Source of the DNA: Desulfobacterales bacterium
GTDB taxonomy: Bacteria > Desulfobacterota > Desulfobacteria > Desulfobacterales > JAHEIW01
Direction: 5' to 3'
Assembly: GCA_030066985.1 (NCBI GenBank)
Contig: JASJAN010000001.1
Location: 69,976-133,975, forward strand
Length of the DNA: 64,000 bases
Below, in pieces: positions 23,280 through 61,785 of the stretch. The translations under genes and the position numbers were made by a program. Position 1 is the first letter of the stretch; the number at the start of each line of letters is the position of its first letter. Under the pieces are notes generated by a model that was not told the origin of the DNA, ran no database searches, and saw nothing but the letters and a program-made list of their open reading frames with translations.

Positions 23280-23507
23280 GGAAGTAAACTGGGTCCGAAA
23301 CTTATTAAACGATTTAGTTATGCCCATAATGAGAAGTTTGTTAGACGAAAAAAAGGAAGTAAACTGGGTTCGAAACCTTTAGATTTTGTTCGCTGGCAAG
23401 GCGCAATTAGGTTCAAAAGTGGAGCGTACACGTTAGTACGCGAGCATTTTGAACCTAATTGTAACACCGCCAGCGGGCAAAAGATGTGGGTTTGGAACCC
23501 AGTTTTA
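23280..23507. repeat. Composite repeat locus (element J): a 22-nt direct repeat x2, an 85-nt near-perfect hairpin and one inverted repeat copy
   Basis: ggaagtaaactgggtYcgaaac at 23280-23301 and 23355-23376, with an inverted copy at 23490-23507. The hairpin spans 23391-23475 and includes a perfect 14-bp aattaggttcaaaa/ttttgaacctaatt. Confidence 0.75.
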
Positions 23508-24755
23508 ATGTTTGAAGCTGCGTTGGCCCGTATACACCATCGTCGCATCGGCCTCGTTGCAGGCTTCGATGGACTGATAATCGTTGCCGGAGCCCCCGGG
23601 TTGGATGACCGCCGTAATGCCTTCACGCAGGCCCACATCAACTCCATCTCGAAACGGAAAGAAAGCATCGCTGACCATGGCAGCCCCAGTCAGCCCGCCT
23701 TTCTCAGATGCCACCTGGGCATCAATGGCTGATTTTTTATCCGCATCGGTCAATTCATTGTAAGGCAGACCGTGGGATTCAAAACAATACCGATCGGCCA
23801 GTTTACGATAGGCTTTATCTCTGGCAATCTCAGCCACCCCTACCCGATCCTGCTCGCCGGTACCGATGCCCACTGTGACCTCATCTTTGACGTAGATAAC
23901 CGAATTAGACGTAATCCCGGATTCCACCAACCAGCCAAAAAGCAGATCATCATATTCTTTATCGGTGGGTTCCCGATTGATCTTGTAATGCTGACCTTTG
24001 TACTCACATTCGGCCAGCTTAAGATCATTCTGTGAACGGGTGGTCGGCACAAACGACCACTGGGCAATGATACCGCCGTCGATCAGACTTTTAAATTCAA
24101 CACATCTTTGCCCCACAAACGATTGCAGCCTTTCAATGTTTCCGATTTTAACCACGCGCAGATTGGGTTTCTGGGCAAAGATATCCATCACACCCTGCTC
24201 AAAATCGGGCGCGACCACCACTTCGGCATACTGTTGGGTGATGGCCTCAGCAGTGGCTTTATCGACCGGTTGATTAACGGCAATACAGCCGCCGAAAGCG
24301 GCCACCCGGTCGGCCATATTGGCTTTGACATAGGCATCGACCAATGTGTCGGCTCGGGCCACTCCACAAGGGTTATTGTGTTTGACGATAACCACGCTGG
24401 GTTTGTCCACAAAATAACGCAAAATGTTTAGCGAATTGTCGGCATCGGTCAGATTGGTCTTGCCCGGGTGCTTGCCGGACTGCAGCAGCTCAATGTCAGA
24501 TGCCAGAAACTGCCCCGGCTGAAGGGTTTCGGTTTCACCGAGCACCAGGTTGCCGTTGACCAGTTTATACAAAGCGGCTTCCTGGCCGGGATTCTCACCA
24601 TAGCGCAGGCCTTTTTGAACGTCATCGACAACCCAGACCACTTTCTCATAAAAAAGCGTCTGACGTTTGTCGGCATCCACAAAACTGATTTCCATCTGGG
24701 GCGGAAAATGGTCATCCATCACGGTGCGATACATCTTTTTAAGGTCTTCAACCAT
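23505..24755 (-). CDS. purH: AICAR formyltransferase (PurH C-terminal activity as a separate polypeptide)
   Basis: LRYGENPGQ and other AICARFT-domain signatures. The ATG is preceded by AAGGAG, which sits inside the end of the upstream gene. Confidence 0.88.
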   Translation of the reverse strand: MVEDLKKMYRTVMDDHFPPQMEISFVDADKRQTLFYEKVVWVVDDVQKGLRYGENPGQEAALYKLVNGNLVLGETETLQPGQFLASDIELLQSGKHPGKTNLTDADNSLNILRYFVDKPSVVIVKHNNPCGVARADTLVDAYVKANMADRVAAFGGCIAVNQPVDKATAEAITQQYAEVVVAPDFEQGVMDIFAQKPNLRVVKIGNIERLQSFVGQRCVEFKSLIDGGIIAQWSFVPTTRSQNDLKLAECEYKGQHYKINREPTDKEYDDLLFGWLVESGITSNSVIYVKDEVTVGIGTGEQDRVGVAEIARDKAYRKLADRYCFESHGLPYNELTDADKKSAIDAQVASEKGGLTGAAMVSDAFFPFRDGVDVGLREGITAVIQPGGSGNDYQSIEACNEADATMVYTGQRSFKH

Positions 24756-24759
24756 GATA

Positions 24760-25449
24760 TTACTCCTTATTTTTAATTTGATAACAGGTAGTTACATCAT
24801 CGATCGGTTTTGAAACCAAAAAATCGGCAATGGTACGATCATAAACGGCGGTGTGGTCAAATGCTTTGCGGGCCAGCTGGAAACGTAGATCCAGAGTTGT
24901 GGCGCCCTGGTTTTCGTTAAGCACCGTCAGGATCTTTTCGTAATCAGCCGGATCAACGACAGATGCCACCCGGATGTAGTTTTTGGCAGAGGCCCGAATC
25001 ATGCAAGGCCCACCAATATCGATATTGCCTCTGGCCTGCTCCACAGTGACATCGGGTTGGGATATGGTCTGTTTGAAAGGATACAAATTGACCACGACCA
25101 TATCGATGGACACACTGCTCGTGCGACTCAGGTCGGCCTGGTGGGCATCATTGTAAGTCTCTGTAAGCAGCCCCAGGTATATTTTAAAATCCAAAGTCTT
25201 GACCAACCCGCCTTGGGTCTCGGGCTGCCCGGTATAATCTGAAACCTGCATCAGGCGGCCGGAAACGGCATCTCCCAGAATTTCACGGATGCGACCATAG
25301 GTCCCTCCTGTTGAGAAAATCTGAATTTGGGGATTGATCTCAACCAGGCGCGGAATAAACTGCTCAAGCCCGCTTTTGTCGGAGACACTGACCAGCACAT
25401 TATGCACCTTAACAACATCATCTACCCTTTCTACGACATTAATGCTCAT
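24760..25449 (-). CDS. purH: IMP cyclohydrolase (PurH N-terminal MGS-like domain as a separate polypeptide)
   Basis: VLVSVSDKSGL, STGGT and MGS-like fold signatures. The stop TAA lies 4 nt before the downstream ATG. Confidence 0.85.
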   Translation of the reverse strand: MSINVVERVDDVVKVHNVLVSVSDKSGLEQFIPRLVEINPQIQIFSTGGTYGRIREILGDAVSGRLMQVSDYTGQPETQGGLVKTLDFKIYLGLLTETYNDAHQADLSRTSSVSIDMVVVNLYPFKQTISQPDVTVEQARGNIDIGGPCMIRASAKNYIRVASVVDPADYEKILTVLNENQGATTLDLRFQLARKAFDHTAVYDRTIADFLVSKPIDDVTTCYQIKNKE

Positions 25450-32046: not shown

Positions 32047-34581
32047 ATGCCTATGGATATTAAACGCGTTTTGAGTTCCAGCCGTGCGGTCTGCCTGTTG
32101 CTGATGATCGCCATTTTAGCGGCAATGCTTTTGGGCTTCAGGCCGCTGCTGCTACTTGAATATAAGGCATATGATCTGATGTCGGGGTTGAGGAACAGGA
32201 CCGCCGGAACGCCAGTTGTCATGGTTACCATCGATGATCGGAGTCTACAGCAAGTGGGGGATTGGCCCTGGCCGCGGTCTTATATGGCCAAGATCATTAA
32301 CATCCTCTCCAAAAACGGTGCGCACACGCTGGGCATCTCCGTTTTATACCGCAGCCGGGAGTTGAATGCCGGCAGTGTTGAAATTCAAGATCTCAGAGAA
32401 ACACTTCGCCAAAAACCGCCATCCAAACAAATACAAACGCTGGAAAAAATTGACGGACTGCTGGCCCAAATGCAAGGCCGACTTGATCACGATGCACAGT
32501 TGATCTCTGCAGTTCGATCGGCTCGCAATGTCGTCTTGCCTCTGCGATTTATGTTGCAGGATTCAGATGCCAATACACCGGCGCCTCTGTCGGGCTGGTT
32601 AAAAATGAATTCGATCCAATTGAGCCCCAAGCCCGTAGAACAAAACCTGCCGGTCAAAGCGGCCGCATTCTTGTTGAATGGGCGCTCCAGCAAACCCATC
32701 CGGGTCTCTGAGGTGCAACAACCCTTTCTTGAGCTGTCAAAAAAATCAGGTGCATTGGGACACCTTAACCTGACAGCCGATCCGGATAATAAGATTCGCC
32801 GCATTCCGCTGTTGATTAGCTTTCAAGACCGAGAATTTCTTTCATTGGCGCTGCAGGTCGCTCTGAAATATTATGGTGTCCACATGCGGAACGTGCGGGA
32901 GCAGCCTTCAGGTCTAAAAATAAGGCAGCTGAGCATCCCCACCATTGGGCCGCATCATATGCTGATTGATTTCAGCGGCCAGGCGGCCAACATCCAAAAA
33001 ATATCAGCTATCGACGTACTCGAAGGAAAAATCGAAAACAGACAATTTCGCAACAGGGTCGTTTTGCTCGGACTGACCGCTGATGCTTACGCTCTGCGCT
33101 ACCAAATACCGCGCTATGGTTTGGCCTCGGAGATTGAAATTACCGCCTGTGCGGTCGAAAACATGATCAATCGAAATCATATCGCCAGACCGGCATGGTT
33201 TCGGGTTCTGGAAATATTGGTGCTGTTATATTTCGGCTTTTTTTTGCTGGTGGTCATTCCCAAGGTCCCGCCACGAACCGGGATGCTCATCTTTGCCTTA
33301 TTTTTGACGATTTGGATGGGTGTTGCCATACTGCTGTTTGTGACCTCAGATCAATGGCTGCGCAGCATTACGCCAGCCCTGTTTGCTGTTGCGGGTTTCG
33401 CCTTTACCGGATGGTCGCGTATTTCCGATGCCAAGAAAGATGAGAGTGTTGAGTTAAACAAGTCGTTGGGACTGTCCCTACAGAGCCAGGGTATGTTGGA
33501 TATGGCTTTTGAAAAATTCTTAAAATGCCCGATTAACGAAAAATCGGTAAAAGCATTGCTCTATAACCTGGGACTGGATTTTGAGCGCAAAAGAATGTTC
33601 AACAAAGCGTTGGCGGTTTACCATCATATCCTAAAGGCCGGCGCATATAAAGACATCAAGCGACGGATAAAACAGCTGGAAAAAATTGAGCAGACCGTCG
33701 CCCTGCCGGTGGGGCAACATAAAAAGGATACCCCGCTCATATGGGCCGATTCAACCACCAAACCCACCCTGGGGCGTTACGAGATTATCAAAGAACTGGG
33801 TCACGGCGCCATGGGCACCGTCTATCTGGGCAGGGATCCGAGCATCAATCGAGAGGTGGCCATCAAAACGCTCAGCTATAGCGACGTTGAGGCCCAGCAG
33901 CTCAACGATGTGAAGGAACAATTTTTCCGCGAAGCCGAGGCCGCCGGTAAACTCTCACACCCCAACATCGTCACGATTTTTGATGTGGGCGAAGATCATG
34001 ATATGGCCTATATTGCCATGGAGTTGCTAAAGGGCAAAGAGCTAACGCATTTTTGCCAGAAAAACAGTTTGTTGCCGATCGATGGGGTCATGGGTGCGGG
34101 GCTTTCAGTAGCAGAGGCGCTCGCCTATGCCCACGCGCAAGGTGTCGTCCACCGGGATATTAAACCGGCCAACATTATCATGCTGGAAAATGATCAAATC
34201 AAGGTCGCCGATTTTGGTATTGCACGCGTCATGAGTTCGTCAACCAAAACTGAAACAGGGGTTATTTTCGGCACCCCAAACTATATGTCGCCGGAACAGG
34301 TGTCCGGTAAAAAAGTTGACGGCCGCTCGGATCTTTTCTCCCTGGGAATTGTTTTATACGAAATGCTCAGCGCTGAAAAACCTTTCAAAGGCGAAAATAT
34401 TACAGCCCTTTTATACGCCATCACCCATAATAACTACGAACCGCTGTCAAAAGTTGCGTCCCAAATTCCGAAATGCTGTGTAAATCTGATTGATAAATTG
34501 TTGCGCAAAGGTGTCAGCAAGCGATACCAGTCCGCCACCCATGTTATCAAAGACATCAACCGCTGCCGGCAGGAATTGTAA
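32047..34581 (+). CDS. CHASE2 sensor - transmembrane - TPR-like - Ser/Thr protein kinase
   Basis: CHASE2 hallmark GDWPWPR, 3-4 TM helices around residues 385-470, and C-terminal Hanks kinase motifs VAIKTL, HRDIKPANI, DFGIA and SPEQ. Confidence 0.85.
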   Translation: MPMDIKRVLSSSRAVCLLLMIAILAAMLLGFRPLLLLEYKAYDLMSGLRNRTAGTPVVMVTIDDRSLQQVGDWPWPRSYMAKIINILSKNGAHTLGISVLYRSRELNAGSVEIQDLRETLRQKPPSKQIQTLEKIDGLLAQMQGRLDHDAQLISAVRSARNVVLPLRFMLQDSDANTPAPLSGWLKMNSIQLSPKPVEQNLPVKAAAFLLNGRSSKPIRVSEVQQPFLELSKKSGALGHLNLTADPDNKIRRIPLLISFQDREFLSLALQVALKYYGVHMRNVREQPSGLKIRQLSIPTIGPHHMLIDFSGQAANIQKISAIDVLEGKIENRQFRNRVVLLGLTADAYALRYQIPRYGLASEIEITACAVENMINRNHIARPAWFRVLEILVLLYFGFFLLVVIPKVPPRTGMLIFALFLTIWMGVAILLFVTSDQWLRSITPALFAVAGFAFTGWSRISDAKKDESVELNKSLGLSLQSQGMLDMAFEKFLKCPINEKSVKALLYNLGLDFERKRMFNKALAVYHHILKAGAYKDIKRRIKQLEKIEQTVALPVGQHKKDTPLIWADSTTKPTLGRYEIIKELGHGAMGTVYLGRDPSINREVAIKTLSYSDVEAQQLNDVKEQFFREAEAAGKLSHPNIVTIFDVGEDHDMAYIAMELLKGKELTHFCQKNSLLPIDGVMGAGLSVAEALAYAHAQGVVHRDIKPANIIMLENDQIKVADFGIARVMSSSTKTETGVIFGTPNYMSPEQVSGKKVDGRSDLFSLGIVLYEMLSAEKPFKGENITALLYAITHNNYEPLSKVASQIPKCCVNLIDKLLRKGVSKRYQSATHVIKDINRCRQEL

Positions 34582-34677
34582 AGACTTCAGAAATGTACTG
34601 CAGGGGATAAAAAAACATGATAAGATAGCTTATGAAGGTGGCGCAAAATTGCAGAATGATTCGGGAGGTCACTCAGC

Positions 34678-35028
34678 ATGCTAAAACTGGAACTAAAATT
34701 CAAAGGCAAAGTTCTTAAACAAATTGAAACCAATCAGAATGAAATCTGCATTGGTCGGAGCAACAACAACGACATTGTCATCGATAATTTGGCGGTTTCA
34801 AAAGAGCATGCCAAGATCATCAAATTGCCAGATGGCTATGGCCTGGTGGACCTCGATAGCACCAATGGCACCTTATTAAACAATAAGGACATTAAAAAAG
34901 CGAAATTAGTGCCGCAGGATGTTCTCACCATCGGCAAACACACCATAGAAATCAAGTCAACGGATGAAAAGAAAACCGTGGCTGCGGATCTGGCCGATAA
35001 AACCGTAAAAGTATCCTCATCAAAATAA
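34678..35028 (+). CDS. FHA domain protein
   Basis: GGGAGG SD. FHA core ICIGRSNNNDIVIDNLAVSKEHAKI...STNGTLLNN. Confidence 0.85.
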   Translation: MLKLELKFKGKVLKQIETNQNEICIGRSNNNDIVIDNLAVSKEHAKIIKLPDGYGLVDLDSTNGTLLNNKDIKKAKLVPQDVLTIGKHTIEIKSTDEKKTVAADLADKTVKVSSSK

Positions 35029-35341
35029 AAAGATCTGATTTAACGATACAAGCCTATCCCAAAAGATTCATCAACTCCAGGATCAAGTGTCTTTATTCTG
35101 CATTTCCATCGCTCAGATTGATCTTTATAGACGTTGACATCAGTACCAATCCCGCCTGAATCACTAGATGAATCGGCCATCCAAATGATCTTTTGGATCA
35201 ACGCTGCTAGCTGCATCAAAAAAACAGATCTGGAATCTAGTACCATCAGATTATCGGCAAAAGAACTAGCAATAGCACGTATATGTCAAAAACATCATCT
35301 GTTTATACTAGATCTTAAAGACGCCTAACCATAAATTATCC

Positions 35342-35370
35342 TTGACAAGCTATTGGATCTTGCATGTAAT
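35342..35370 (+). promoter_or_regulatory. Sigma70-type promoter (TTGACA-17-TGTAAT)
   Basis: TTGACA at 35342-35347, an exact 17-nt spacer and TGTAAT at 35365-35370. It lies ~33 nt upstream of ATG 35403. Confidence 0.5.
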
Positions 35371-35402
35371 GGATGATAAATACTAGGAAACGAGGTCCAA
35401 GG

Positions 35403-35861
35403 ATGAAGAGATATTCGATCGAAATTGATGAACGGCTTTGGCGTTACCTACAGAAACATGCTGAGCCGTTTGTCGACTCACCCAATTCGGTGTTAAGCCG
35501 CCTGCTGCTCGGTACTAGTACCGACCGGCCTCAAAAAGACGAATCCGCAGACATGCCGGCGCTCACAGTTGAAGGTGCACCCAAATCCCTGGCACAGATC
35601 CTGGAAGTCATGTATGAAATAGAAAACAACGGCTTTTCACGAATTGAAGCGACCAACCGAGTAGCTGAAAACAGAGGCACCGCCCCCCAAACCATCACTG
35701 ACAAGTACTGCCGACAACTGGGTAAGAAAGCGCATGAAATTGATCAGCTGCTAGCCGAGCCCGAATACCTGCAATTTAGGGAACTCCTCAAAACCAAGTT
35801 CAGCAGATATCATCAGATGATCGATACCTATTTTGAAAGCCTGCTGGCCGGCACGGGTTAA
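35403..35861 (+). CDS. Hypothetical protein; N-terminus is RHH-like (beta-alpha-alpha)
   Basis: MKRYSIEIDERLWRYLQKHAEPFVDSPNSVLSRLLLG, with no family recognised. The start was chosen downstream of the promoter and after GAGG. The ORF-track start 35373 would overlap the promoter. Confidence 0.55.
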   Translation: MKRYSIEIDERLWRYLQKHAEPFVDSPNSVLSRLLLGTSTDRPQKDESADMPALTVEGAPKSLAQILEVMYEIENNGFSRIEATNRVAENRGTAPQTITDKYCRQLGKKAHEIDQLLAEPEYLQFRELLKTKFSRYHQMIDTYFESLLAGTG

Positions 35862-35882
35862 CGGTACGGTAAGTGTCGTCGG

Positions 35883-37058
35883 TTAGGTCTGAGAAGCCTT
35901 CTGATAGAGAGGAGATATATCGCGCAGCGTCGTGACCACCTGCTTAAGGGCCTTTAGAAAGGTATCGATATCTTTTTCCGTATTATCGATCCCAAAAGAG
36001 ATAACCAGGGTTCCCTGCGCATCGGCATGACTGAGGCCCAAAGACAGCAGGACATGCGAGGCTCGCAATGAGCCGGTTGCACATGCAGAACGCGTCGATA
36101 CAGCGATATTTTCATCATCGAGCATCAGCATCACACTTTCCCCTTCGATATATTGAACCGAAATTGACACCAGATTGGGCAAGCTAAATTCTGGATGCGT
36201 ATTGACAATATATTCGTCGATGCTCTTAGGAAAATCGTTTAAGAGTTTGTTTTTTAAAGTTTTCAGATGCGCCAAGCGCTTGTCCATGTCCCGCACTGCA
36301 AGCTCTGCCGCTTTGCCAGTCCCGATAATGCCCACTAGATTCTCGGCACCGGCACGCTTATTGTTTTCCTGAACGCCGCCATCCAGCAGGGGAAATATAC
36401 GGGTGCCGCGGCGGATATACAGCCCCCCGACACCTGCCGGGCCATAAAACGTATTGGCCGCAAAGCTGAGCAAATCCACCCCCAGTTTTTGTACGTCCAT
36501 CGGCAGCACTCCAGCCGAATCCACCGCATCGGTGTGAAATATCACCTTTTTTTCACGGGTAATCTTGCCAATTTCCTCAATCGGTTGCAGAGTGCCGGTT
36601 TCGTTGTTGCTGTGCATAACAGACACCAGAATCGTTTCCTTGGTGATGGCATCGGCCACATCCTGCGGCTTCACACGCCCGTTGGCGTCCACCGGAAGCG
36701 AGGTAACGGCAAACCCGGCGGATTTGAGACGTCGTAAACTGCGGATGACGGCATTGTGCTCGATGTTGGAGGTAATGATGTGCTTGCCTTTATCTTCATT
36801 CGCCATGGCCACACCTTTGATGGCATGGTTGACGGACTCGGTTCCACCGGATGTAAAGACAATTTCCTTGGGTGTCTTGCAGTTCAGCAACTGCGCGACC
36901 GCTTCACGCGCGTTTTGAAGTGCCGCAGCAGCTTCTTCGCCCGATTTATGCTGGCTGGAGGGGTTGTGATAATCTTTTTCAATGGCCTCAATCATCACCT
37001 TTTTGATTTCCGGCAATAGCGGTTTGGCCGAAATATGGTCCAGATTGATAACTTTCAT
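35883..37058 (-). CDS. nifS: NifS/IscS-like class V aminotransferase-fold protein lacking the canonical PLP His-Lys
   Basis: TSGGTESVNHAIKG, ITSNIEHNAV, HSNNETG, HTDAVDSAG and Cys loop STRSACATGS are present. Where canonical enzymes read LSxSGHKxxGPKG, this protein reads LSFAANTFYGPAG (36438-36470). Confidence 0.8.
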   Translation of the reverse strand: MKVINLDHISAKPLLPEIKKVMIEAIEKDYHNPSSQHKSGEEAAAALQNAREAVAQLLNCKTPKEIVFTSGGTESVNHAIKGVAMANEDKGKHIITSNIEHNAVIRSLRRLKSAGFAVTSLPVDANGRVKPQDVADAITKETILVSVMHSNNETGTLQPIEEIGKITREKKVIFHTDAVDSAGVLPMDVQKLGVDLLSFAANTFYGPAGVGGLYIRRGTRIFPLLDGGVQENNKRAGAENLVGIIGTGKAAELAVRDMDKRLAHLKTLKNKLLNDFPKSIDEYIVNTHPEFSLPNLVSISVQYIEGESVMLMLDDENIAVSTRSACATGSLRASHVLLSLGLSHADAQGTLVISFGIDNTEKDIDTFLKALKQVVTTLRDISPLYQKASQT

Positions 37059-37088
37059 AATGACCTACCTTGCAACATCGCGGCAAAA

Positions 37089-37601
37089 TTAATGTTCTTC
37101 TTCCAAACTGGATTGGCATGCATCACAAAAGGTAATGTCCGGCATAATTTCGATATCACAATAGGGACAATAACACTTTTTACCATGTGAGTGCTCATGT
37201 TTTTCTTTGCGGATCGGTTGGGGCCGCTTCACACCGGCTTTTTTATCCTCATAGTTCTGGATAGCCAACTGCAGCGCATCGGCTCCCAGGTTGGAGCAAT
37301 GCAGCTTGTTCTTCGGCAAGCCCTCCAGGGCCGCAGCGACATCTTTATTGGTCAGTTTTTTGGCATCCGCCAGGCTCTTGCCCTTGGCAATTTCGGTGAT
37401 CATGCTGGATACGGCAATGGCAGATCCACAGCCAAAAGTCTGAAATTTAATATCTTCGATCTGTTCATCTTCAATCTTAAGATAGATGGTCATCATATCG
37501 CCGCACAGCGGATTGCCGACCTCACCGACACCGTCGGCATCATCGATCACACCCACATTGCGCGGGTTGCGGAAATGATCCATAACCGTTTTATTGTACA
37601 T
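37089..37601 (-). CDS. nifU: IscU/NifU N-terminal-type Fe-S scaffold with a C-terminal zinc-ribbon-like extension
   Basis: Scaffold cysteines are in NPLCGDMM, FGCGSAIA and LHCSNLG. The C-terminus reads CYCPYCDIEIMPDITFCDAC. Confidence 0.85.
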   Translation of the reverse strand: MYNKTVMDHFRNPRNVGVIDDADGVGEVGNPLCGDMMTIYLKIEDEQIEDIKFQTFGCGSAIAVSSMITEIAKGKSLADAKKLTNKDVAAALEGLPKNKLHCSNLGADALQLAIQNYEDKKAGVKRPQPIRKEKHEHSHGKKCYCPYCDIEIMPDITFCDACQSSLEEEH

Positions 37602-37692
37602 TCTCCATTCCTCCTTTATTTATCAGTATCTAAACTTCCAGCTTATCGGTAAAGCTATTGTGTAATCGTGTTATGGTTTTCAAAAGTAGGCG

Positions 37693-37764
37693 TAATGGAG
37701 TGTTGGAGTACTGGAGTATTGGATGTTTTTCCATCACTCCATCACTCCTATACTCCAATACTAC
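37693..37764. repeat. Oligomer-arm inverted repeat (element F; unit TGGAGT / ACTCCA x3, tight TTTTT loop)
   Basis: taatggagtgttggagtactggagtattggatg ttttt ccatcactccatcactcctatactccaatactac. Confidence 0.75.
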
Positions 37765-37836
37765 AAAGTTACCTAACTCATTCGCATCGTAGTCTAAATT
37801 AAACGATAGCCGACGACGATAAATGTCAAACAAGAC

Positions 37837-38865
37837 TTAATCTATTTGAAGTACTTTGGCGCCTCTTATCTTGCGTTGCCTCAATTCAACCAGAGCGCGA
37901 TTGGCATCTTGCAGTTTAAAACTCTGCACCTCAGGTTGGATCGGAATTTCAGCGGCCAGCATCAAGAACTCACTGACATCGCTGCGCGCCACGTTGGCCA
38001 CGCTTTTGATTTCTTTTTCCTGCCAGAGGTGCTTTGGATAGTCCAGGCTCAACAGGGTTTTTTTGTCACTTTCCTCCTTGCGGATGGCATTAATGACCAG
38101 CCGACCTCCCGGTTTCAGGCAATTCAGAGCCTTTACAATCGGCTTCCACGCCGGCGTGGTATCAATAACCGCATCGAGCATTTCGGGGGGTTGCGCGTCT
38201 GTATCGCCAGACCAGATGGCACCCAACTGACGTGCAAAATCACGTTCTGTGCCGCTTCTGGCAAATACAAACACCTTTGTATCTGGATACTTGTAGCGCA
38301 CCATTTTTAAGATCAGATGGGCGGATGCGCCGAAACCCGTCAAGCCAAGGTTCTGGCCATTTTTCGCGCCACAAAGCCGCATCGAACGATAGCCGATGGC
38401 GCCGGCACATAAAAGTGGTGCCGCCTGCAGATCGTTAAAAATTTCAGGGATGGCATAAGCAAAACCTTCATCTACGATCGTATATTCAGCATAGCCACCG
38501 TGCACATCCCTGCCGGTAGCCTTAAACGACGCACATAAATTCTCCGCGTCGCCTTTACAAAACGCGCAACGACCGCAGGCCGAATGTATCCAGGCAACAC
38601 CGATGCGGTCCCCGGTGCTGAATCGGGTGACCCCATCTCCGCAGGCTGCCACCCGGCCGACAATTTGATGACCGGGAATTACCGGTAATTTCGGCGGAGG
38701 GGTGCGCCCCTCAATTTCATCCAACTCCGTGTGGCACACGCCACAGGTGGACACTTTTATTAAGATCTGGTTGTCCGCAGGAACCGGCTCCGGCAAATCG
38801 ACCAACACAAGGGGTTTGCTGTGATCAGAGATCGTGCCCAGCTGTTCTAGCACCATTGCTTTCAC
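37837..38865 (-). CDS. Zinc-dependent alcohol dehydrogenase (MDR family)
   Basis: GVCHTELDEIEG catalytic zinc motif, structural zinc CGRCAFCKGDAENLC and Rossmann GLTGFGASAH. Confidence 0.85.
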   Translation of the reverse strand: MKAMVLEQLGTISDHSKPLVLVDLPEPVPADNQILIKVSTCGVCHTELDEIEGRTPPPKLPVIPGHQIVGRVAACGDGVTRFSTGDRIGVAWIHSACGRCAFCKGDAENLCASFKATGRDVHGGYAEYTIVDEGFAYAIPEIFNDLQAAPLLCAGAIGYRSMRLCGAKNGQNLGLTGFGASAHLILKMVRYKYPDTKVFVFARSGTERDFARQLGAIWSGDTDAQPPEMLDAVIDTTPAWKPIVKALNCLKPGGRLVINAIRKEESDKKTLLSLDYPKHLWQEKEIKSVANVARSDVSEFLMLAAEIPIQPEVQSFKLQDANRALVELRQRKIRGAKVLQID

Positions 38866-39615: not shown

Positions 39616-39998
39616 GGTATCACCTCCATGCAGTCATACTGTTGAAGCTAATGATGTCAACCCCTAATGTCAAGAGTTTTAACTACATGATAATATTGGA
39701 TTTTTTATGGTAAACACAGAACAGACCCAGAGCAACTAAAGTGACCCCATCAACAATACCAAACAACGCGGCTTTGAGACCGCGAATGGTCACATTGGCA
39801 AGTGGCCGTGGAAGACTTGGCGCAACCGGTTGCCCGCAGCCTCTATTTGATATTTTGCCTTCTATTTTAAAACATGATATGCCAGCCCTGCATCGCATGT
39901 CTGCGTCGACATAAAAGGTCGCAGTATCGTCAAAATATGGTAAACTAATAGAGGTTTTTGCCAACATCTGAAACCCGTTGTATGAATCACTATTCTGT

Positions 39999-42900
39999 AT
40001 GCCCAAACGTCGCAAAATATGGGTCACCCTCATCAGCCTGTCTGCCATTTTGCTGTGCGCGCTGATAGTTCTGCTGGTGGTTACCCCGCAACTGATTAAC
40101 CTGGAAACCGTCAAACAGGAGGTCAAACGCCTGTATGCCAGGGATTTAGGGGGCACAATTGAATACCAGCGTCTTAAAATGGCGTTTTTCCCGCGTCCGC
40201 ATGTCGTGATTTCAGACGTTCGTTTTACTGTGCCTGAAAACGTCAAAGGAACGATAGATTCGCTGAAGATCTATCCGAAAATCCTGCCGCTGATCACCGG
40301 TGATATAGAAATCAGAGTGGTCCATTCGCGATCGCCGAATATTACGGTTCAATTCCCGGAAACCACAGAAACACAAAAAACAGATGGTAAACCGTTTTCG
40401 TTAGAAGCCCCCGTCGATTGGCTCAAGGCCATTATTGAATCGATGCCGGAGCTCAAGATTCCGAGCATCGCCATCACTGTTCGTAATGGCCGCGTCAATT
40501 TTTATAAGGGGCAACAGCGGTTTTTAGCACTTCAGGGTGTCACCAGCCAGATCAAACATAAGGGGGCATCCATTGAATTTTCGGCGCAATGCCAATCAAA
40601 CTACTGGGAGAACATATCGATTGAAGGCCGGTACGCCGAATCCGGTTTTAAATTGAACAGCCAAATTAAATTGAATCAGCTCCGGCCGCATGCCGTGGTT
40701 GAATACCTATTTCCCGATCATAGCCTCAAAATGACCAATGCGCGCGCAAACCTAACCATCGACCTAATGACAGATGGTCCCAATAATGTGCGGGCTGATA
40801 TTGAGGGGTCCATCCCGTATATGTACTGGCAACGTGCGAACAAAGAGCTAAAAATAAACGACACCCGTGTGCAGGCCCGTTTTGAATTCAAAGAAGACCA
40901 CCTTTCGCTGGATCTTTCGCGGCTTGATTTGACAGAGCCCCGCTTGAGTCTATCGGGTCGTCTCAATATAGATGCCCGACAGCCCGTCGTTCAACTGGAA
41001 CTGGAAGGCCGGCAGATCAATGTGGGCAAAGCCCAAAAATTAGCGCTGGCACTGACCGAAAATGCCGAAAACGTATCCGATATTTTTAAAATATTGCGTG
41101 ACGGTGATTTTGAGAGAGTCACCCTGCAAAGCCAGGCACCTGATTGGACCCAACTGGCTGACACAAAAAATTTGGTGATCCAGGGCAAACTCGTCGGCGG
41201 GAAAATATCGATTCCGGTCGGCTCGCTGGAACTGGAGAATGTGCAGGGTGATGCCACGATTGCCAACGGCATCTTAAAGGGTGAAAATGCCGAGGCGCAA
41301 ATGGGAAAGTCATTTGCGAAAAATGGCAAACTCTCCATCCCCCTGACAGATGCAACCGCCCCTTTTCATATTGAAGCACTTGTCCAGGCAGATCTGTCGC
41401 AGCTGCCTTCTGTTTTGGCCCGTCTGATCGATGACAAGCAATTTCAAAAAGAGCTAAAGCTTTTCAAAAAAGTTGAAGGCAGCGCTCTGGGCATGCTGGT
41501 GATTGGTGAAGATTTGCGTGATACCAAAGTGAAGGTCATGGCCTCTGACTTCACGGTCAATACAACCTACCAGCGAATACCTTATCGGATGACGGTAAAA
41601 GGCGGCAGCTTCGTTTTGGACGGGGATCAGATAGCGTTGACCAATTGCGATGTTCGTTTTGGAAAATCCAGCTTGACCGGGCTGTCAACCCGCTTTGGGT
41701 GGCAAAAAGCGTCACTGCTGGAAGCATCATCAACATCGGCCCACATCGATTTAAGCCAACTGCACACCTGGCTGGGCCAAATGCAAACATTTGAAAAGGA
41801 CCTCAAAAAGATTGAGACCATCGCCGGCGCCATCCTTTTGCAAAACCCTACCCTAAATGGCCCCCTATTTAAGCCGGCCCAGTGGCAGGTGAAATCCAAA
41901 GGGGTGATTCAAAATCTGATGTTGAGCTCAGCTCAGATACCCGGTCCAGTGACCATCACACGGGGACAATTTAGCTGTCATAATAAGCAGTTGAAGGTAA
42001 ATAAATGGACCGCTCAGGTTGGGCAGTCGATATTTTCAGGTCTGAATGCCACCCTCAAATGGGGTAAGAAATCGTCTTTGACGGCCAACGCCGGTGCAAG
42101 CGTGATAAATCTGGATGAAGTCTATGCCTGGCTCAAAAGCCATCGGGATCTGAAAAAACGTGTCAGAGATGTTCCGGTTTTAAGCGGTAACCTGGCCTTT
42201 AGGAGCCTGACATTTGATGGCCCCACCAGCACCCAATCGAAAAGAAAATTTACCTTCAGCGGCGTCATTGATAAATGGCATATCCGCTCAGCAAAATTTC
42301 CGACCGATATAGAGTTGAGCGGTGGCGAGTTGTTTTGGCGGCGCACGCGATTCGATATCCAGGAAACCAATGCCAGGTTCGGCACATCCACCATACGCCA
42401 TCTATCATTCGGAAAGCAATGGGGTAAAATCCCCTTAATCGAGCTCAATGCCGATTCAGCCAATATCCAGATCGCAGAGCTTTACCCGTGGCTGGTGAGC
42501 TTTGACACCCTGAATAAAATGTTCAAAGGGTATAAAGCCACCGGGGGCAAAATGATACTTACGGAATTGGATTTCAAAGGTCCGGTGGGTGCATCCAAAG
42601 CCTGGCAATTCCATTTATCCGGCGACATAAAAGATTTAGAATGGGTATCGGATTTTTTCAAAGCCCCGATCCAGGTCAAAACAGTAGATTTTATTGCCAA
42701 GGACACCCCTAGCGCTGCAGGCCTCAACGGTCGTATCGATCTGAGCACGGTGCAAATTGAATGGGAAGACAGTCAGATTAACCTTGAGGGCGGTGCCACT
42801 TTTTCTGAAGACCTGTTGTCGCTTGAGTTGCAGCTGACAGCCGATCAGTTGAAATGGAGCCAGATTGAACAAATTACCAGCGTGGAGAAGACCACAGCGC

Positions 42901-43793
42901 CCGATGAAAAGCTAGGGCTGCGCGGCGGTTTGAGCGTAGAGTTAGACAGTTTTACCTATAATGGTTTTAGCTGGCGCCCGGTTCACGCTGACATTACCTT
43001 CGGTAAAACCGATACCCGAATTGTCATTCGGGAAGCCAACCTCTGCGGCATCCAGTTTCCCGGCATTCTTAAGATCTCCGGTGAGTCTTTTGAGCTGTAT
43101 TTTAATCCGGTTGCAAAAGACCAGGAACTGGACACGAGTCTTACCTGCCTGTTTGACAGGCCGCATTTAATGGCGGGCAGTTACAATTTGGGGGGTGAGC
43201 TGCTGGGCAAGGCCCGGCCCAGCGAATTTGCAAAATCATTGACCGGAAATCTGGATTTTAATTCTGTAGAGGGTCGCATTTATCGTTTCGGCTTGCTGGC
43301 CAAAATTTTTGCATTGCTCAATGTCACCGAAATTTACCGGGGGGAAGTTCCGGATCTGAAGGGCAAAGGCTTTGCCTATAACTCGATGACGGCTAATGGT
43401 GTCTTTAAAGACGGCAAACTGATCATCACAGACACCTCCATTGACAGCCCCTCCATGGGTATCGCCATTGAGGGGGATATCGATTTGATCAAAAACAAAG
43501 TCGATCTGGTCGTATTGGTGGCCCCGTTTAAAACCGTTGATCGGATTGTGAAGATCATCCCCCTGGTCGGCAACATATTGGGGGGCAATCTGATTTCGAT
43601 TCCGTTCAGAGCCATCGGCGATCTTGGGGACCCGGATGTCATACCGCTTTCACCGACGGCAGTGGGTTCAGGTTTATTAGGCATTCTGGAAAGAACCCTC
43701 AAGCTTCCGATTACCATTATTCAGCCGGTTCTTCCCGATAAAAAAGAGCAACCCTCACCCAAAGAAAAAAAATCGCCCGGCACATCTCCTTAA
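39999..43793 (+). CDS. AsmA/YhdP-like giant envelope protein
   Basis: An N-terminal anchor KIWVTLISLSAILLCALIVLLVV and a long beta-rich body. The C-terminus resembles AsmA-like C-terminal regions. Start is ATG 39999; the ORF-track TTG 39978 adds 7 residues. Confidence 0.7.
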   Translation: MPKRRKIWVTLISLSAILLCALIVLLVVTPQLINLETVKQEVKRLYARDLGGTIEYQRLKMAFFPRPHVVISDVRFTVPENVKGTIDSLKIYPKILPLITGDIEIRVVHSRSPNITVQFPETTETQKTDGKPFSLEAPVDWLKAIIESMPELKIPSIAITVRNGRVNFYKGQQRFLALQGVTSQIKHKGASIEFSAQCQSNYWENISIEGRYAESGFKLNSQIKLNQLRPHAVVEYLFPDHSLKMTNARANLTIDLMTDGPNNVRADIEGSIPYMYWQRANKELKINDTRVQARFEFKEDHLSLDLSRLDLTEPRLSLSGRLNIDARQPVVQLELEGRQINVGKAQKLALALTENAENVSDIFKILRDGDFERVTLQSQAPDWTQLADTKNLVIQGKLVGGKISIPVGSLELENVQGDATIANGILKGENAEAQMGKSFAKNGKLSIPLTDATAPFHIEALVQADLSQLPSVLARLIDDKQFQKELKLFKKVEGSALGMLVIGEDLRDTKVKVMASDFTVNTTYQRIPYRMTVKGGSFVLDGDQIALTNCDVRFGKSSLTGLSTRFGWQKASLLEASSTSAHIDLSQLHTWLGQMQTFEKDLKKIETIAGAILLQNPTLNGPLFKPAQWQVKSKGVIQNLMLSSAQIPGPVTITRGQFSCHNKQLKVNKWTAQVGQSIFSGLNATLKWGKKSSLTANAGASVINLDEVYAWLKSHRDLKKRVRDVPVLSGNLAFRSLTFDGPTSTQSKRKFTFSGVIDKWHIRSAKFPTDIELSGGELFWRRTRFDIQETNARFGTSTIRHLSFGKQWGKIPLIELNADSANIQIAELYPWLVSFDTLNKMFKGYKATGGKMILTELDFKGPVGASKAWQFHLSGDIKDLEWVSDFFKAPIQVKTVDFIAKDTPSAAGLNGRIDLSTVQIEWEDSQINLEGGATFSEDLLSLELQLTADQLKWSQIEQITSVEKTTAPDEKLGLRGGLSVELDSFTYNGFSWRPVHADITFGKTDTRIVIREANLCGIQFPGILKISGESFELYFNPVAKDQELDTSLTCLFDRPHLMAGSYNLGGELLGKARPSEFAKSLTGNLDFNSVEGRIYRFGLLAKIFALLNVTEIYRGEVPDLKGKGFAYNSMTANGVFKDGKLIITDTSIDSPSMGIAIEGDIDLIKNKVDLVVLVAPFKTVDRIVKIIPLVGNILGGNLISIPFRAIGDLGDPDVIPLSPTAVGSGLLGILERTLKLPITIIQPVLPDKKEQPSPKEKKSPGTSP

Positions 43794-51889: not shown

Positions 51890-52508
51890 GATGGTATCTC
51901 CTTTAGTCTGTTATCCAATCCATTGATTTTATTTAATTATCAAACTAAGAGGTTGTATAAAACCTCAGATTTAATGTCAAGCCCGGCTTGGGCTAAGCCA
52001 ATTCGCAAAAGGGTTCGGCCAAAGGTAAATTCTTATATATCCTATTGAATTCATTTTATTTAATAAATGGAAACACCCTTCCCAGAAGCCATCATCACGA
52101 GCACCCATGAGGGTTGGGTTTTTTGATTGAACCAATGCATCAAACTCAATAATTGCAGAACATAAGCCTTGCAAGACGATTCAAATTAAAGTAATAGACA
52201 TTCACATTAGGTGTACCGCATTTAGAGGCATTCGCTAAGCCTTAAAAACACAGGTAGCCATTGAGAAATGCCTTCCGGAAATCCCGGCCTTCTGATCTGG
52301 GCGATGACGCCATGAGACCGGGCATTGTCTTTTTGCCAACCTTCGGGTGACCGGATATTTGGAGGATGATTACCATCATCAGGTTTCAGGCCTGCTATGG
52401 CATGAACCGAATATTGGGCCACAACAATCCTTCCCATGGACAGCTGTTAGGATACCGGCTCATCAACAAGTTGAACCATTAAATCGGCTGAAAGTTGAAG
52501 CAGAATCG

Positions 52509-61387: not shown

Positions 61388-61785
61388 TGCAAAGCCCCCT
61401 GTTTAATGGTTGCTGCAATTTATTCAGTTGCACAACCGAACCTCAGCAGAGTTATGTCCAGGATCAATTTCGCTGAGAAAGGTCCTGGCCATTGCCAAAT
61501 TAGCTTTGGGGTTTTGCCAAAAAAAAAGCTGCGCCACCATTATTCCGGTAACCAGCTTTGCAGACATGCTTTGGCAACCCGGCGATCCGCCGAAGCGGAC
61601 CCGTGGCTTTCCGTCACCCGATTACTCGGGTTTTGGCTTTTTCATCAACGAATTTTAATGAAACGCTCATATGGCAGCGTTCGCCTTTAAAAGCGTGCAA
61701 TAAACAGGCCCAAGGCTTTAAATTCAAATAGAATATTAATTTTAGCAACTTATAATAGTGCGCCCTGTTTATCGCACCCTCAAAA

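What the first reader, a model, noticed from the sequence alone, without database searches (positions are those of the whole stretch)
35883..37601. NifS/IscS-like protein without the PLP-binding lysine, paired with an intact IscU-type scaffold
The 391-aa NifS-like protein keeps most class V aminotransferase landmarks: TSGGTESVNHAIKG, ITSNIEHNAV, HSNNETG, HTDAVDSAG and the Cys loop STRSACATGS. Canonical cysteine desulfurases read LSxSGHKxxGPKG at the Schiff-base lysine motif. The segment that aligns by eye with it reads LLSFAANTFYGPAGVGG (36438-36470), so His-Lys becomes Asn-Thr (Thr203 codon at 36450-36452). No Lys is nearby. Without that lysine a normal PLP-dependent desulfurase cycle is not expected. 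A Lys-less IscS that still partners IscU has been described in Archaeoglobus fulgidus, another sulfide-exposed anaerobe. The upstream IscU-type gene has all three scaffold cysteines plus an extra C-terminal zinc-ribbon-like CYCPYC...CDAC tail. Together they may form a desulfurase-independent Fe-S assembly pair that uses sulfide.
Basis: partly seen in the sequence, partly recalled or inferred. Interest (0 to 1): 0.55.

Follow-up and report, generated by a model that had tools for sequence, protein, structure and literature searches.

The report
Lysine-less NifS look-alike paired with IscU
An uncultured Desulfobacterales bacterium encodes, right after its iron-sulfur scaffold gene, a strongly conserved cysteine-desulfurase look-alike that has lost the lysine and other residues needed for that chemistry, so it probably helps assemble clusters without extracting sulfur from cysteine, as already shown for one archaeon.

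Summary
The 391-aa NifS/IscS homologue (35883-37058, -) aligns gap-free with solved desulfurases and with a 129-sequence canonical profile. The Schiff-base His-Lys is Asn202-Thr203. Gln183→Asp, Arg354 (substrate carboxylate)→Val and Gly325→Arg are also changed, while His104, Asp180 and the loop Cys are kept. None of 77 orthologues from species-level Desulfobacterales genomes has the Lys (T/P/S/A instead), and none of the 120 nearest database proteins shows the canonical His-Lys motif. dN/dS is 0.03-0.07. The IscU-binding helix and Cys loop are the best conserved parts. An IscU gene with all cluster ligands and a conserved His/Cys-rich tail precedes it in every locus with room for it. The solved, experimentally inactive A. 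fulgidus IscS is altered at the same positions, but the two lineages do not group together. About 13% of the nearest family representatives, from several bacterial phyla, show the same set of losses. Best reading: a catalytically dead desulfurase retained as IscU co-scaffold and Cys-ligand donor. Sulfide as the sulfur source is inferred, not shown. Whether these genomes carry another desulfurase could not be checked. It is a new bacterial member of a kind known from Archaea, everywhere annotated "cysteine desulfurase".

The parts
35883..37058 (-). NifS/IscS(MisS)-family gene, 391 aa, lacking the PLP Schiff-base lysine
   Evidence: ORF. Pfam Aminotran_5 E=6.4e-72. NCBIfam best hit TIGR03402 FeS_nifS at 437.6 bits, below its 530.75 cutoff. 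PDB 9wep E=3.6e-106 and 4eb5 E=8.6e-96. dN/dS 0.03-0.07.
36432..36467 (-). Former Schiff-base motif SFAANTFYGPAG (residues 198-209). Asn202-Thr203 (36450-36455) replace His205-Lys206 of E. coli IscS; Ala208 replaces Lys211.
   Evidence: In the clade, Asn202 is 77/77. Position 203 is T58/P16/S2/A1, never K.
36519..36521 (-). Asp180, replacing Gln183 (H-bond to the PLP phenolate O)
   Evidence: Asp in 77/77 clade members; Gln in 126/129 canonical. Q183E inactivates E. coli IscS (PMC9978102).
36003..36005 (-). Val352, replacing Arg354 (binds the substrate alpha-carboxylate)
   Evidence: V73/L2/I2 in the clade; Arg in 129/129 canonical. Role of the Arg from PMC9978102.
36069..36098 (-). Mobile Cys loop STRSACATGS with Cys326 (36081-36083) retained; Gly325 of canonical SGSAC replaced by Arg/Lys
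   Evidence: Cys in 77/77. R69/K8 at the Gly column. Loop conservation 0.98 against 0.82 protein-wide.
36123..36146 (-). Helix equivalent to IscS alpha8 (EGESVMLM), part of the IscU-binding surface
   Evidence: Interface defined in PMC2854127. Clade conservation 0.97.
35892..35930 (-). C-terminal helix TLRDISPLYQKAS, equivalent to IscS alpha12 (R379-K391), required for IscU binding in E. coli
   Evidence: PMC2854127. LRDISPLY is invariant in alignment A2. Mean conservation of the segment 0.78.
37089..37601 (-). IscU/NifU_N-type scaffold gene, 170 aa, 30 nt upstream of the NifS-like gene. Cluster ligands Cys33, Asp35, Cys58, His101, Cys102.
   Evidence: Pfam NifU_N E=2.1e-50. TIGR03419 NifU_clost 194.6 bits, above its 187.9 cutoff. 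PDB 7c8m and 4eb5_C. Ligands invariant.
37116..37199 (-). IscU C-terminal His/Cys-rich tail HEHSHGKKCYCPYCDIEIMPDITFCDAC (residues 135-162)
   Evidence: C143, C145, P146, Y147, C148, D149, C159, C162, H139 invariant; H135, H137 at 90% or more. Motif in 75/75 orthologues. Weak DZR match. No structural model. Absent from IscUs next to P0124 and P0136.
37602..37620 (-). Ribosome-binding site AAGGAGGAA upstream of iscU; the only conserved upstream element
   Evidence: Alignment of upstream regions from 13 close loci. No promoter or terminator signal above shuffled expectation.

Best explanation
The gene encodes a catalytically dead member of the group-I (NifS/IscS/MisS) cysteine desulfurase family. 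It has been kept not as an enzyme but as the obligatory partner of the IscU scaffold encoded just upstream.

Proposed mechanism:
- The dimer still docks two IscU molecules through its alpha8 and C-terminal helices.
- Its flexible loop Cys326 supplies the fourth ligand to the nascent [2Fe-2S] cluster on IscU Cys33/Cys58/Cys102, as seen in the A. fulgidus (IscS-IscU)2 structure.
- Sulfur comes from outside the protein, not from PLP-dependent C-S cleavage of cysteine. The most likely source is free sulfide, which a Desulfobacterales cell would have in abundance.
- The conserved His/Cys-rich tail of IscU is an added metal-binding module of unknown role (Zn ribbon, or Fe or electron delivery).

Shown: loss of Lys206, His205, Gln183 and Arg354; retention and strong constraint on the Cys loop and the IscU-binding surface; fixed gene pairing; purifying selection.

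Inferred: lack of activity, the ligand-donor role, sulfide as sulfur source, and the tail's function.
For: 1. Active-site losses are confirmed by three alignment methods. They are fixed in 77/77 orthologues, and the ex-Lys column is free to be T/P/S/A, including Pro in 16.
2. In E. coli IscS, Q183E or K206A alone abolishes desulfurase activity, and Arg354 anchors the substrate carboxylate (PMC9978102).
3. The protein is under strong purifying selection, dN/dS 0.03-0.07. 60 of 79 canonical conserved columns are retained.
4. The IscU-binding helix alpha8 (0.97) and the Cys loop (0.98) are better conserved than the protein average of 0.82.
5. iscU lies directly upstream in 75/80 loci; the other 5 have the NifS gene within a few hundred bases of the contig start, with no room for a full iscU. 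No other gene is conserved alongside.
6. A. fulgidus IscS (4eb5) carries substitutions at the same five positions and keeps the Cys. It is reported to lack desulfurase activity and to give a Cys ligand to the [2Fe-2S] on IscU (PMC7585200 citing Marinoni 2012, Yamanaka 2013 and Pagnier 2015; PMC13066941).
7. Across 146 full-length family representatives, loss of Lys co-occurs with loss of Arg354 and Gln183 while Cys328 is always kept.
8. Sulfide-driven Fe-S assembly without a desulfurase has precedent in the SMS system and in M. maripaludis (PMC12192291; PMC7585200).
Against: - No biochemical data exist for this clade.
- His104, Asp180, Thr76 and Asn155, which contact the PLP ring and phosphate, remain 100% conserved. 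The pocket may therefore still hold a pyridoxal-type ligand non-covalently.
- E. coli IscS K206A still binds some PLP and may turn over very slowly (PMC9978102).
- I could not determine whether these genomes carry a second, canonical desulfurase that could load Cys326 with persulfide.
- Other Lys-less lineages sit next to TusA or DsrE sulfur-relay genes, which hints at a persulfide route rather than free sulfide.
- The organism's sulfate-reducing lifestyle is assumed from taxonomy. No dsr, apr or sat genes lie in the window.
Confidence: 0.65

Rival explanations
1. Persulfide relay rather than sulfide use. The protein is inactive as a desulfurase, but Cys326 accepts sulfane sulfur from another donor and hands it to IscU. 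The donor could be a canonical desulfurase elsewhere in the genome, or a TusA/DsrE/rhodanese-type carrier linked to dissimilatory sulfur metabolism.
For: - The Cys loop is nearly invariant and has gained a basic residue two positions before the Cys (TRSAC, R69/K8), which could stabilise a thiolate or persulfide.
- Other Lys-less lineages are encoded next to TusA plus a ferredoxin (P0144) or DsrE (P0136).
- E. coli IscS physically docks TusA (PMC2854127).
Against: - No sulfur-relay gene is conserved next to the pair in 80 loci or found in the 64-kb window.
- A. fulgidus IscS is interpreted as a ligand donor, not a relay.
- The existence of a second desulfurase in these genomes is untested.
Confidence: 0.2
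2. The protein is still an enzyme. It binds PLP or PMP non-covalently and catalyses slow desulfuration or a different reaction, with another residue such as His101 acting as the base.
For: - PLP-ring contacts His101, Asp177, Thr73 and Asn152 are invariant.
- E. coli K206A retains bound PLP and possibly trace turnover (PMC9978102).
Against: - Four catalytic or binding residues are lost together (Gln183, His205, Lys206, Arg354).
- The ex-Lys position tolerates Pro, Ser and Ala.
- Q183E alone kills E. coli IscS.
- No compensating Lys exists.
- A. fulgidus IscS, with the same set of losses, is reported inactive.
Confidence: 0.08
3. A regulatory or stabilising pseudoenzyme. It sequesters or stabilises IscU, or competes with a real desulfurase for it, without taking part in cluster chemistry.
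For: The IscU-binding surface is conserved. M. acetivorans Lys-less IscS1 was insoluble when expressed alone, which suggested it needs its IscU (PMC7585200).
Against: The Cys loop would not need 98% conservation and an invariant Cys326 for a purely steric role. The gene is translationally and positionally coupled to iscU in all genomes, which is typical of a stoichiometric working partner.
Confidence: 0.06
4. An artefact or a decaying pseudogene.
For: None found.
Against: - The identical protein occurs on at least 23 independent contigs.
- The reading frame is intact in 80 species-level genomes.
- dN/dS is 0.03-0.07.
Confidence: 0.01

Closest known systems
Archaeoglobus fulgidus IscS2-IscU (PDB 4eb5/4eb7; D199K variant 4r5f)
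   Same: - A group-I desulfurase homologue without the Schiff-base Lys, altered at the same positions: Q183, H205, K206, (T243), R354.
- Loop Cys, His104 and Asp180 retained.
- Partnered with a single-domain IscU that has all ligands.
- Reported to lack desulfurase activity and to donate a Cys ligand to the [2Fe-2S] cluster.
   Different: - Bacterial rather than archaeal.
- Different replacement residues (N-T/P and Q183D here; N-D and Q183A there).
- Cys loop TRSAC instead of TGSAC.
- Only about 45% identity, and the query scores higher against the Lys-containing 9wep (358 bits) than against 4eb5 (324 bits).
- NJ bootstrap support for joining the two Lys-less groups is 2% or less, so an independent loss is likely.
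- IscU here carries a His/Cys-rich tail that no solved IscU structure aligns to.
Methanosarcina acetivorans IscS1 (Lys-less paralogue of the active IscS2)
   Same: It lacks the catalytic Lys and is encoded with an IscU. The authors proposed that it acts like A. fulgidus IscS (PMC7585200).
   Different: It is archaeal and coexists with active IscS2/IscU2 in the same genome, so it is a paralogue. Whether the Desulfobacterales protein coexists with an active enzyme is unknown.
MIS (minimal iron-sulfur) system, MisS-MisU (for example M. acetivorans IscS2-IscU2)
   Same: - A two-gene desulfurase-homologue plus IscU unit with no chaperones, ferredoxin, A-type carrier or IscR nearby.
- The nearest Lys-containing relatives are NifS of Methanosarcina, Nitrospirota and Methylomirabilia.
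- The best IscU structural relative is the archaeal 7c8m.
- IscU has LPKNK in place of the LPPVK HscA-binding motif (the motif's role is from my own knowledge).
   Different: MIS as defined contains an active cysteine desulfurase (PMC12192291; PMC13066941). Here the catalytic residues are missing.
E. coli IscS-IscU (ISC system; 3lvl, 1p3w)
   Same: Same fold family (E=2.5e-82), same Cys loop position, and the same IscU-docking helices.
   Different: E. coli IscS is an active PLP enzyme with Lys206. It serves many acceptors and works with IscR, IscA, HscBA and Fdx. None of these is present here.

Membership tests
Group-I cysteine desulfurase (NifS/IscS/MisS), homology | Full-length class-V aminotransferase fold with significant similarity to NifS/IscS | tested here: met
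   Pfam PF00266 E=6.4e-72 over residues 13-367. PDB hits to IscS/NifS/NFS1 at E of 1e-106 to 1e-67. Canonical profile 530 bits.
Group-I cysteine desulfurase, enzymatic membership (EC 2.8.1.7) | Schiff-base lysine (E. coli Lys206) in the S-x-x-H-K motif | tested here: not met
   Thr203 at this column. Lys in 0/77 clade members and 129/129 canonical sequences.
Group-I cysteine desulfurase, enzymatic membership (EC 2.8.1.7) | Gln183 (PLP O3') and Arg354 (substrate carboxylate) | tested here: not met
   Asp180 (77/77) and Val352 (V/L/I in 77/77). Residue roles from PMC9978102.
Group-I cysteine desulfurase, enzymatic membership (EC 2.8.1.7) | His104 stacking on PLP, Asp180 to pyridine N1, catalytic loop Cys328 | tested here: met
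   His101, Asp177 and Cys326 invariant.
Group-I cysteine desulfurase, enzymatic membership (EC 2.8.1.7) | Score above a curated equivalog cutoff (NCBIfam NifS/IscS models) | tested here: not met
   TIGR03402 437.6 against 530.75; TIGR02006 354.6 against 643.2; NF002806 293.9 against 304.
Group-I cysteine desulfurase, enzymatic membership (EC 2.8.1.7) | PLP content and alanine/persulfide formation from L-cysteine | not testable with these tools
   Needs purified protein.
A. fulgidus-type inactive IscS / IscU pair | Desulfurase homologue lacking the Lys but keeping the loop Cys | tested here: met
A. fulgidus-type inactive IscS / IscU pair | Cognate single-domain IscU with three Cys, Asp and His, encoded adjacently | tested here: met
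   Adjacency in A. fulgidus itself was not checked.
A. fulgidus-type inactive IscS / IscU pair | Common descent with the A. fulgidus lineage | tested here: inconclusive
   The clade is monophyletic at 100% and the Af group at 78%. Joint grouping is 2% or less in NJ bootstraps, with deep nodes unresolved.
A. fulgidus-type inactive IscS / IscU pair | IscS Cys ligates the [2Fe-2S] cluster on IscU in a heterotetramer | not testable with these tools
   No complex prediction was available. The monomer model of the NifS-like protein was unusable (pLDDT 44.8).
MIS (MisS-MisU) minimal system | Two-gene unit without chaperones, carrier or ferredoxin | tested here: met
   Only the pair is conserved across 80 loci. 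No Fe-S accessory genes in the 64-kb window.
MIS (MisS-MisU) minimal system | MisS is an active cysteine desulfurase | tested here: not met
   Catalytic residues are absent. This is a sequence-level test only.
IscU/NifU_N scaffold (TIGR03419 NifU_clost) | Score above the curated cutoff and cluster ligands present | tested here: met
   194.6 bits against a cutoff of 187.9. Cys33, Asp35, Cys58, His101 and Cys102 invariant.
Zinc ribbon (IscU tail) | Two CxxC knuckles recognised by a curated model or a confident fold | tested here: inconclusive
   CPYC...CDAC are present and invariant. Pfam DZR scores only 19.4 bits against a cutoff of 27.3. AF2 pLDDT is below 50 for residues 132-170.

The most novel reading that the evidence does not exclude
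An entire order-level bacterial lineage may have dispensed with cysteine desulfuration for housekeeping Fe-S assembly. At least 80 species-level Desulfobacterales genomes were verified here, and more than 500 further candidates were matched. In this reading they build clusters from metabolic sulfide on an IscU whose co-scaffold is a dead desulfurase, and whose own conserved His3Cys5 tail serves as a built-in iron or electron donor. The same dead-desulfurase solution would have arisen repeatedly in anaerobic bacteria (Nitrospirota, Chloroflexota, Latescibacterota/Zixibacteria) as well as in Archaea. That would make sulfide-dependent MIS variants a widespread, unrecognised mode of Fe-S biogenesis hidden behind the annotation 'cysteine desulfurase'.
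Probability: 0.3. Interest if true: 0.75.

Novelty: new member of a known kind. Interest (0 to 1): 0.5.

Why it matters
- Thousands of database entries for this clade are labelled 'cysteine desulfurase' or 'cysteine desulfurase family protein'. Metabolic reconstructions of sulfate-reducing and other anaerobic bacteria therefore assume a cysteine-to-cluster sulfur route that these proteins almost certainly cannot perform.
- The only studied precedents are archaeal. A large, strongly conserved bacterial clade gives an independent system for asking how Fe-S clusters are made from sulfide and what a desulfurase scaffold does once its chemistry is gone.
- The correlated loss pattern (Lys206 + Arg354 + Gln183 gone, Cys328 kept) is a simple sequence rule that could be used to re-annotate such proteins.
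- The conserved His/Cys-rich IscU tail is a specific, testable addition.

Tried and rejected
- **AlphaFold2 of the NifS-like protein.** Only sequences at least 85% identical to the query were permitted in the alignment. Mean pLDDT was 44.8, so the model was discarded and no fold search was run.
- **AlphaFold2 of IscU.** The core is fine, but the tail (132-170) has pLDDT below 50, so nothing can be concluded about a zinc ribbon.
- **Promoter and terminator scan of 35300-38000.** Counts were not above shuffled expectation.
- **Alignment of iscU upstream regions.** No conserved operator (IscR or Fur type); only the RBS is conserved.
- **Rfam on the whole window.** Nothing near the locus.
- **Search for a third conserved gene.** None across 80 loci. 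The apparent families were antisense shadow ORFs, plus YhdP in 27 loci.
- **Search for a second desulfurase.**
  - None in the window or in about 0.8 Mb of flanks.
  - A Lys-containing 'Deltaproteobacteria' NifS (P0504) proved to belong to Ca. Deferrimicrobiaceae.
  - A match of contig length (21,792 bp) with locus L004 was a coincidence; it is a different contig.
- **Primary A. fulgidus papers.** PMID 25447670 and 23160436 are not held. Their conclusions are cited second-hand from PMC7585200.
- **Compensating Lys elsewhere.** Considered and rejected.
- **Single origin for all Lys-less sequences.** Considered. The tree gives no support, but deep nodes are unresolved.
Full report
**What is there.** On the minus strand, a 170-aa IscU-type gene (37089-37601) is followed after 30 nt by a 391-aa NifS/IscS-type gene (35883-37058). 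Pfam assigns NifU_N (E=2.1e-50) and Aminotran_5 (E=6.4e-72). In NCBIfam, IscU passes the TIGR03419 'NifU_clost' cutoff (194.6 against 187.9). The NifS-like protein falls below every desulfurase equivalog cutoff; its best hit is TIGR03402 at 437.6 against 530.75. The exact protein is annotated 'cysteine desulfurase family protein [Desulfobacterales bacterium]'. It was assembled independently on at least 23 contigs from several MAG projects.

**Checking the lysine column.** Three independent alignments agree.
- phmmer against the PDB pairs query SFAANT with SFSAHK of the best hit 9wep, without gaps.
- MAFFT with genuine E. coli IscS (fetched from NC_000913) and 150 family representatives places Thr203 on Lys206.
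- A profile HMM built from 129 Lys-containing representatives aligns the whole protein (530 bits, accuracy 0.99) with top posterior probability through 'sahKiyGpkG' / 'AANTFYGPAG'.

Lys206 is the PLP aldimine residue in E. coli IscS (PMC2854127). The quoted 17-residue segment actually spans 36423-36473.

**More than the lysine is gone.** Residues below use E. coli numbering.

| Position | Role | Query / clade |
|---|---|---|
| Gln183 | H-bond to PLP phenolate | Asp, 77/77 |
| His205 | precedes the Schiff-base Lys | Asn, 77/77 |
| Lys206 | Schiff base | T58/P16/S2/A1 |
| Lys211 | not known to me | T/A/V/S |
| Thr243 | PLP phosphate contact from the other subunit (from memory) | Ala in the query; T46/A29 in the clade |
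| Gly325 | in the Cys loop | Arg/Lys |
| Arg354 | substrate carboxylate | V/L/I |

Thr76, His104, Asn155, Asp180 and the catalytic-loop Cys328 are invariant. Site-directed work on E. coli IscS shows that H104Q, D180G, Q183E, K206A or C328S each abolish activity, and that Arg354 binds the substrate alpha-carboxylate (PMC9978102). No Lys occurs within +/-8 residues of the column in any clade member, and no clade-specific conserved Lys could substitute.

**It is a conserved family, not an accident.**
- Of the 120 nearest database proteins (86% identity or more), 119 match S-x-[AG]-[AS]-N-[TSA]; the remaining one did not fit my search pattern. None shows the canonical His-Lys motif.
- In a scan of one genome per species, 534 stretches encoded relatives. 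The best 80 (70-92% identity, Desulfobacterales, Desulfosarcinaceae, Desulfatibacillum and similar MAGs) all carry N-[T/P/S/A].
- An exhaustive HMMER search of 1.84 billion cluster representatives found one full-length 50%-identity cluster for this clade (P0121, 76% identity). The next full-length hits drop to 49% or less.
- dN/dS against orthologues with unsaturated dS is 0.03-0.07.
- 60 of 79 columns conserved in canonical enzymes are retained.

**Evidence that it still works with IscU.** iscU lies immediately upstream in 75 of 80 loci. In the other five the NifS gene starts within a few hundred bases of the contig start, with no room for a full iscU. No other neighbour is conserved. The E. 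coli complex structure defines the IscU-binding surface of IscS as helix alpha8 (309-316), Glu347 and the C-terminal helix (379-391) (PMC2854127). In the clade, alpha8 (EGESVMLM) has mean conservation 0.97 and the Cys loop 0.98, against 0.82 protein-wide. 'LRDISPLY' of the C-terminal helix is invariant. IscU keeps Cys33, Asp35, Cys58, His101 and Cys102. Its best structural relatives are archaeal MIS-type scaffolds, 7c8m and A. fulgidus 4eb5_C.

**The IscU tail.** Residues 135-162 (HEHSHGKKCYCPYCD...FCDAC) contain five invariant Cys and three conserved His in 42 homologues, and the motif is present in 75/75 orthologues.
- No solved IscU aligns to it.
- Pfam gives only a sub-threshold double-zinc-ribbon match.
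- AlphaFold gives pLDDT below 50.
- IscUs beside the nearest Lys-containing relative (P0124, 126 aa) and beside a Nitrospirae Lys-less NifS (P0136, 137 aa) lack it.

The tail is therefore confined to this clade among the IscUs I compared, and probably binds metal. Its role is unknown.

**Comparison with the known case.** By querying the PDB with an N-D representative I obtained the residue-level alignment of A. fulgidus IscS (4eb5; 4r5f is its D-to-K variant). It has Q183A, H205N, K206D, T243S and R354L, and keeps Cys, His104 and Asp180. These are the same positions altered here. A. fulgidus IscS is reported to lack desulfurase activity and to contribute a Cys ligand to the [2Fe-2S] cluster on IscU. 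M. acetivorans IscS1 also lacks the Lys (PMC7585200; PMC13066941). From memory, and not verifiable here, the as-isolated A. fulgidus protein held PMP non-covalently. That would explain why ring-contact residues stay conserved.

In NJ bootstraps with the signature columns masked, the Desulfobacterales clade is monophyletic (100%) and the A. fulgidus group has 78% support. The two join in 2% or less of replicates, and deep nodes are unresolved. The query also scores higher against Lys-containing 9wep than against 4eb5. An independent loss is the more likely history, but this is not proven.

**A wider pattern.** Among 146 full-length representatives nearest the query, 19 lack the Lys. Nearly all of these also lack Arg354 and Gln183, and all keep Cys328. 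Named members come from Nitrospirae, Chloroflexota, Latescibacterota/Zixibacteria/Gemmatimonadota and an unclassified hydrothermal bacterium, all annotated as cysteine desulfurases.

Their contexts differ:
- Rrf2-NifS-NifU-DsrE (P0136)
- TusA plus a ferredoxin (P0144)
- an IscA-like gene (P0172)
- MoCF/radical-SAM genes (P0126)
- lipid-synthesis genes (P0127)

The nearest Lys-containing neighbours in the tree already lack Gln183 (P0198, P0194), or both Gln183 and Arg354 (P0124). This may indicate stepwise decay.

**Surroundings.** The 64-kb window holds unrelated housekeeping genes: purine synthesis, a CHASE2 Ser/Thr kinase with an FHA protein, an ADH-like gene, a TPR protein, YhdP, MurJ, FabH and others. 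It has no hscBA, fdx, iscA, iscR, suf, dsr, apr or sat genes and no second Aminotran_5 gene. The unit is thus MIS-like, meaning minimal and two-gene. It differs from MIS as defined, which contains an active desulfurase (PMC12192291).

**Mechanism and confidence.** I consider it most likely (0.65) that the protein is an inactive desulfurase homologue retained as IscU's co-scaffold and Cys-ligand donor. That sulfur enters as free sulfide is an inference from the precedent, from sulfide-dependent SMS and M. maripaludis, and from the presumed sulfidic lifestyle of Desulfobacterales. The main rival (0.2) is that Cys326 relays persulfide from another donor. Residual enzymatic activity (0.08) and a purely regulatory role (0.06) are less likely. 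An artefact is excluded. The most important untested point is whether these genomes contain a canonical desulfurase; my attempts to find out failed.

**Novelty.** No paper in the held library describes Lys-less NifS/IscS in Desulfobacterales or other bacteria. The kind itself is known from Archaea. I classify this as a new, large bacterial member of a known kind with a clade-specific IscU tail, and I rate the interest as moderate.

Noticed in passing
window 37692-37761: An imperfect palindrome with 32-nt arms, built from tandem 8-nt GGAGTNNT units, lies in the ADH-iscU intergenic region. It is the only copy in the window (4 motif hits, all at this spot, against 0.06 expected). A similar element is present upstream of iscU in locus L006. 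Its function is unknown; it could be a terminator for the ADH gene or a repeat element.
   Followed up: partly
window 61569-61646 (-): A c-di-GMP-I-GGC riboswitch aptamer (Rfam RF03167, 65.4 bits against a gathering score of 59) lies just upstream of a GNA1162-like lipoprotein gene (60569-61387, -).
   Followed up: no
representatives P0124 (locus L082), P0198, P0194: The nearest Lys-containing relatives of the clade already lack Gln183 (Ala). P0124 also lacks Arg354 (Leu) and Thr243 (Ile) while keeping His-Lys, and is followed by a plain 126-aa IscU. These may be intermediates in the loss of activity.
   Followed up: partly
loci L083, L085, L086 (other Lys-less NifS-like lineages): Lys-less NifS homologues in other phyla sit beside sulfur-relay or Fe-S genes: TusA plus a ferredoxin (P0144), Rrf2-NifS-NifU-DsrE (P0136, Nitrospirae, with Lys replaced by Arg), and an IscA-like gene (P0172, Chloroflexota).
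   Followed up: partly
window 35373-35861 (+): A 162-aa ORF convergent with the NifS-like gene is conserved in 18 of 80 loci. It has only weak ribbon-helix-helix-like N-terminal matches (SeqA_N E=3.7e-4; SepA family E=2.8e-5, far below cutoff). It is probably unrelated to the pair.
   Followed up: partly
window 23505-25449 (-): The AICARFT/IMPCHase (PurH) homologue is split into two adjacent ORFs: 229 aa with the MGS domain and the start of the AICARFT domain, and 416 aa with the rest.
   Followed up: no
window 52347-56906 (+): A very large (1519 aa) fusion protein carries duplicated BcrAD/BadFG ATPase domains and a DUF2229 CoA-enzyme-activase domain.
   Followed up: no
window 32047-35028 (+): A CHASE2-sensor Ser/Thr protein kinase (844 aa) is followed by a small FHA-domain protein. 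This pair is syntenic with the iscU-nifS unit in about 10 close relatives.
   Followed up: no
window 39978-43793 (+) and 27 of 80 loci: A YhdP/TamB-like giant envelope protein recurs near the iscU-nifS pair in many clade members. A TamB/DUF748 gene also follows the NifS-NifU pair of P0124. This is probably conserved local synteny rather than a functional link.
   Followed up: no
locus L093: The Lys-containing NifS of Ca. Deferrimicrobiaceae sits in an Rrf2-NifS-MnmA operon (tRNA 2-thiolation). This shows the kind of sulfur-donor job that a Lys-less protein could not do.
   Followed up: no
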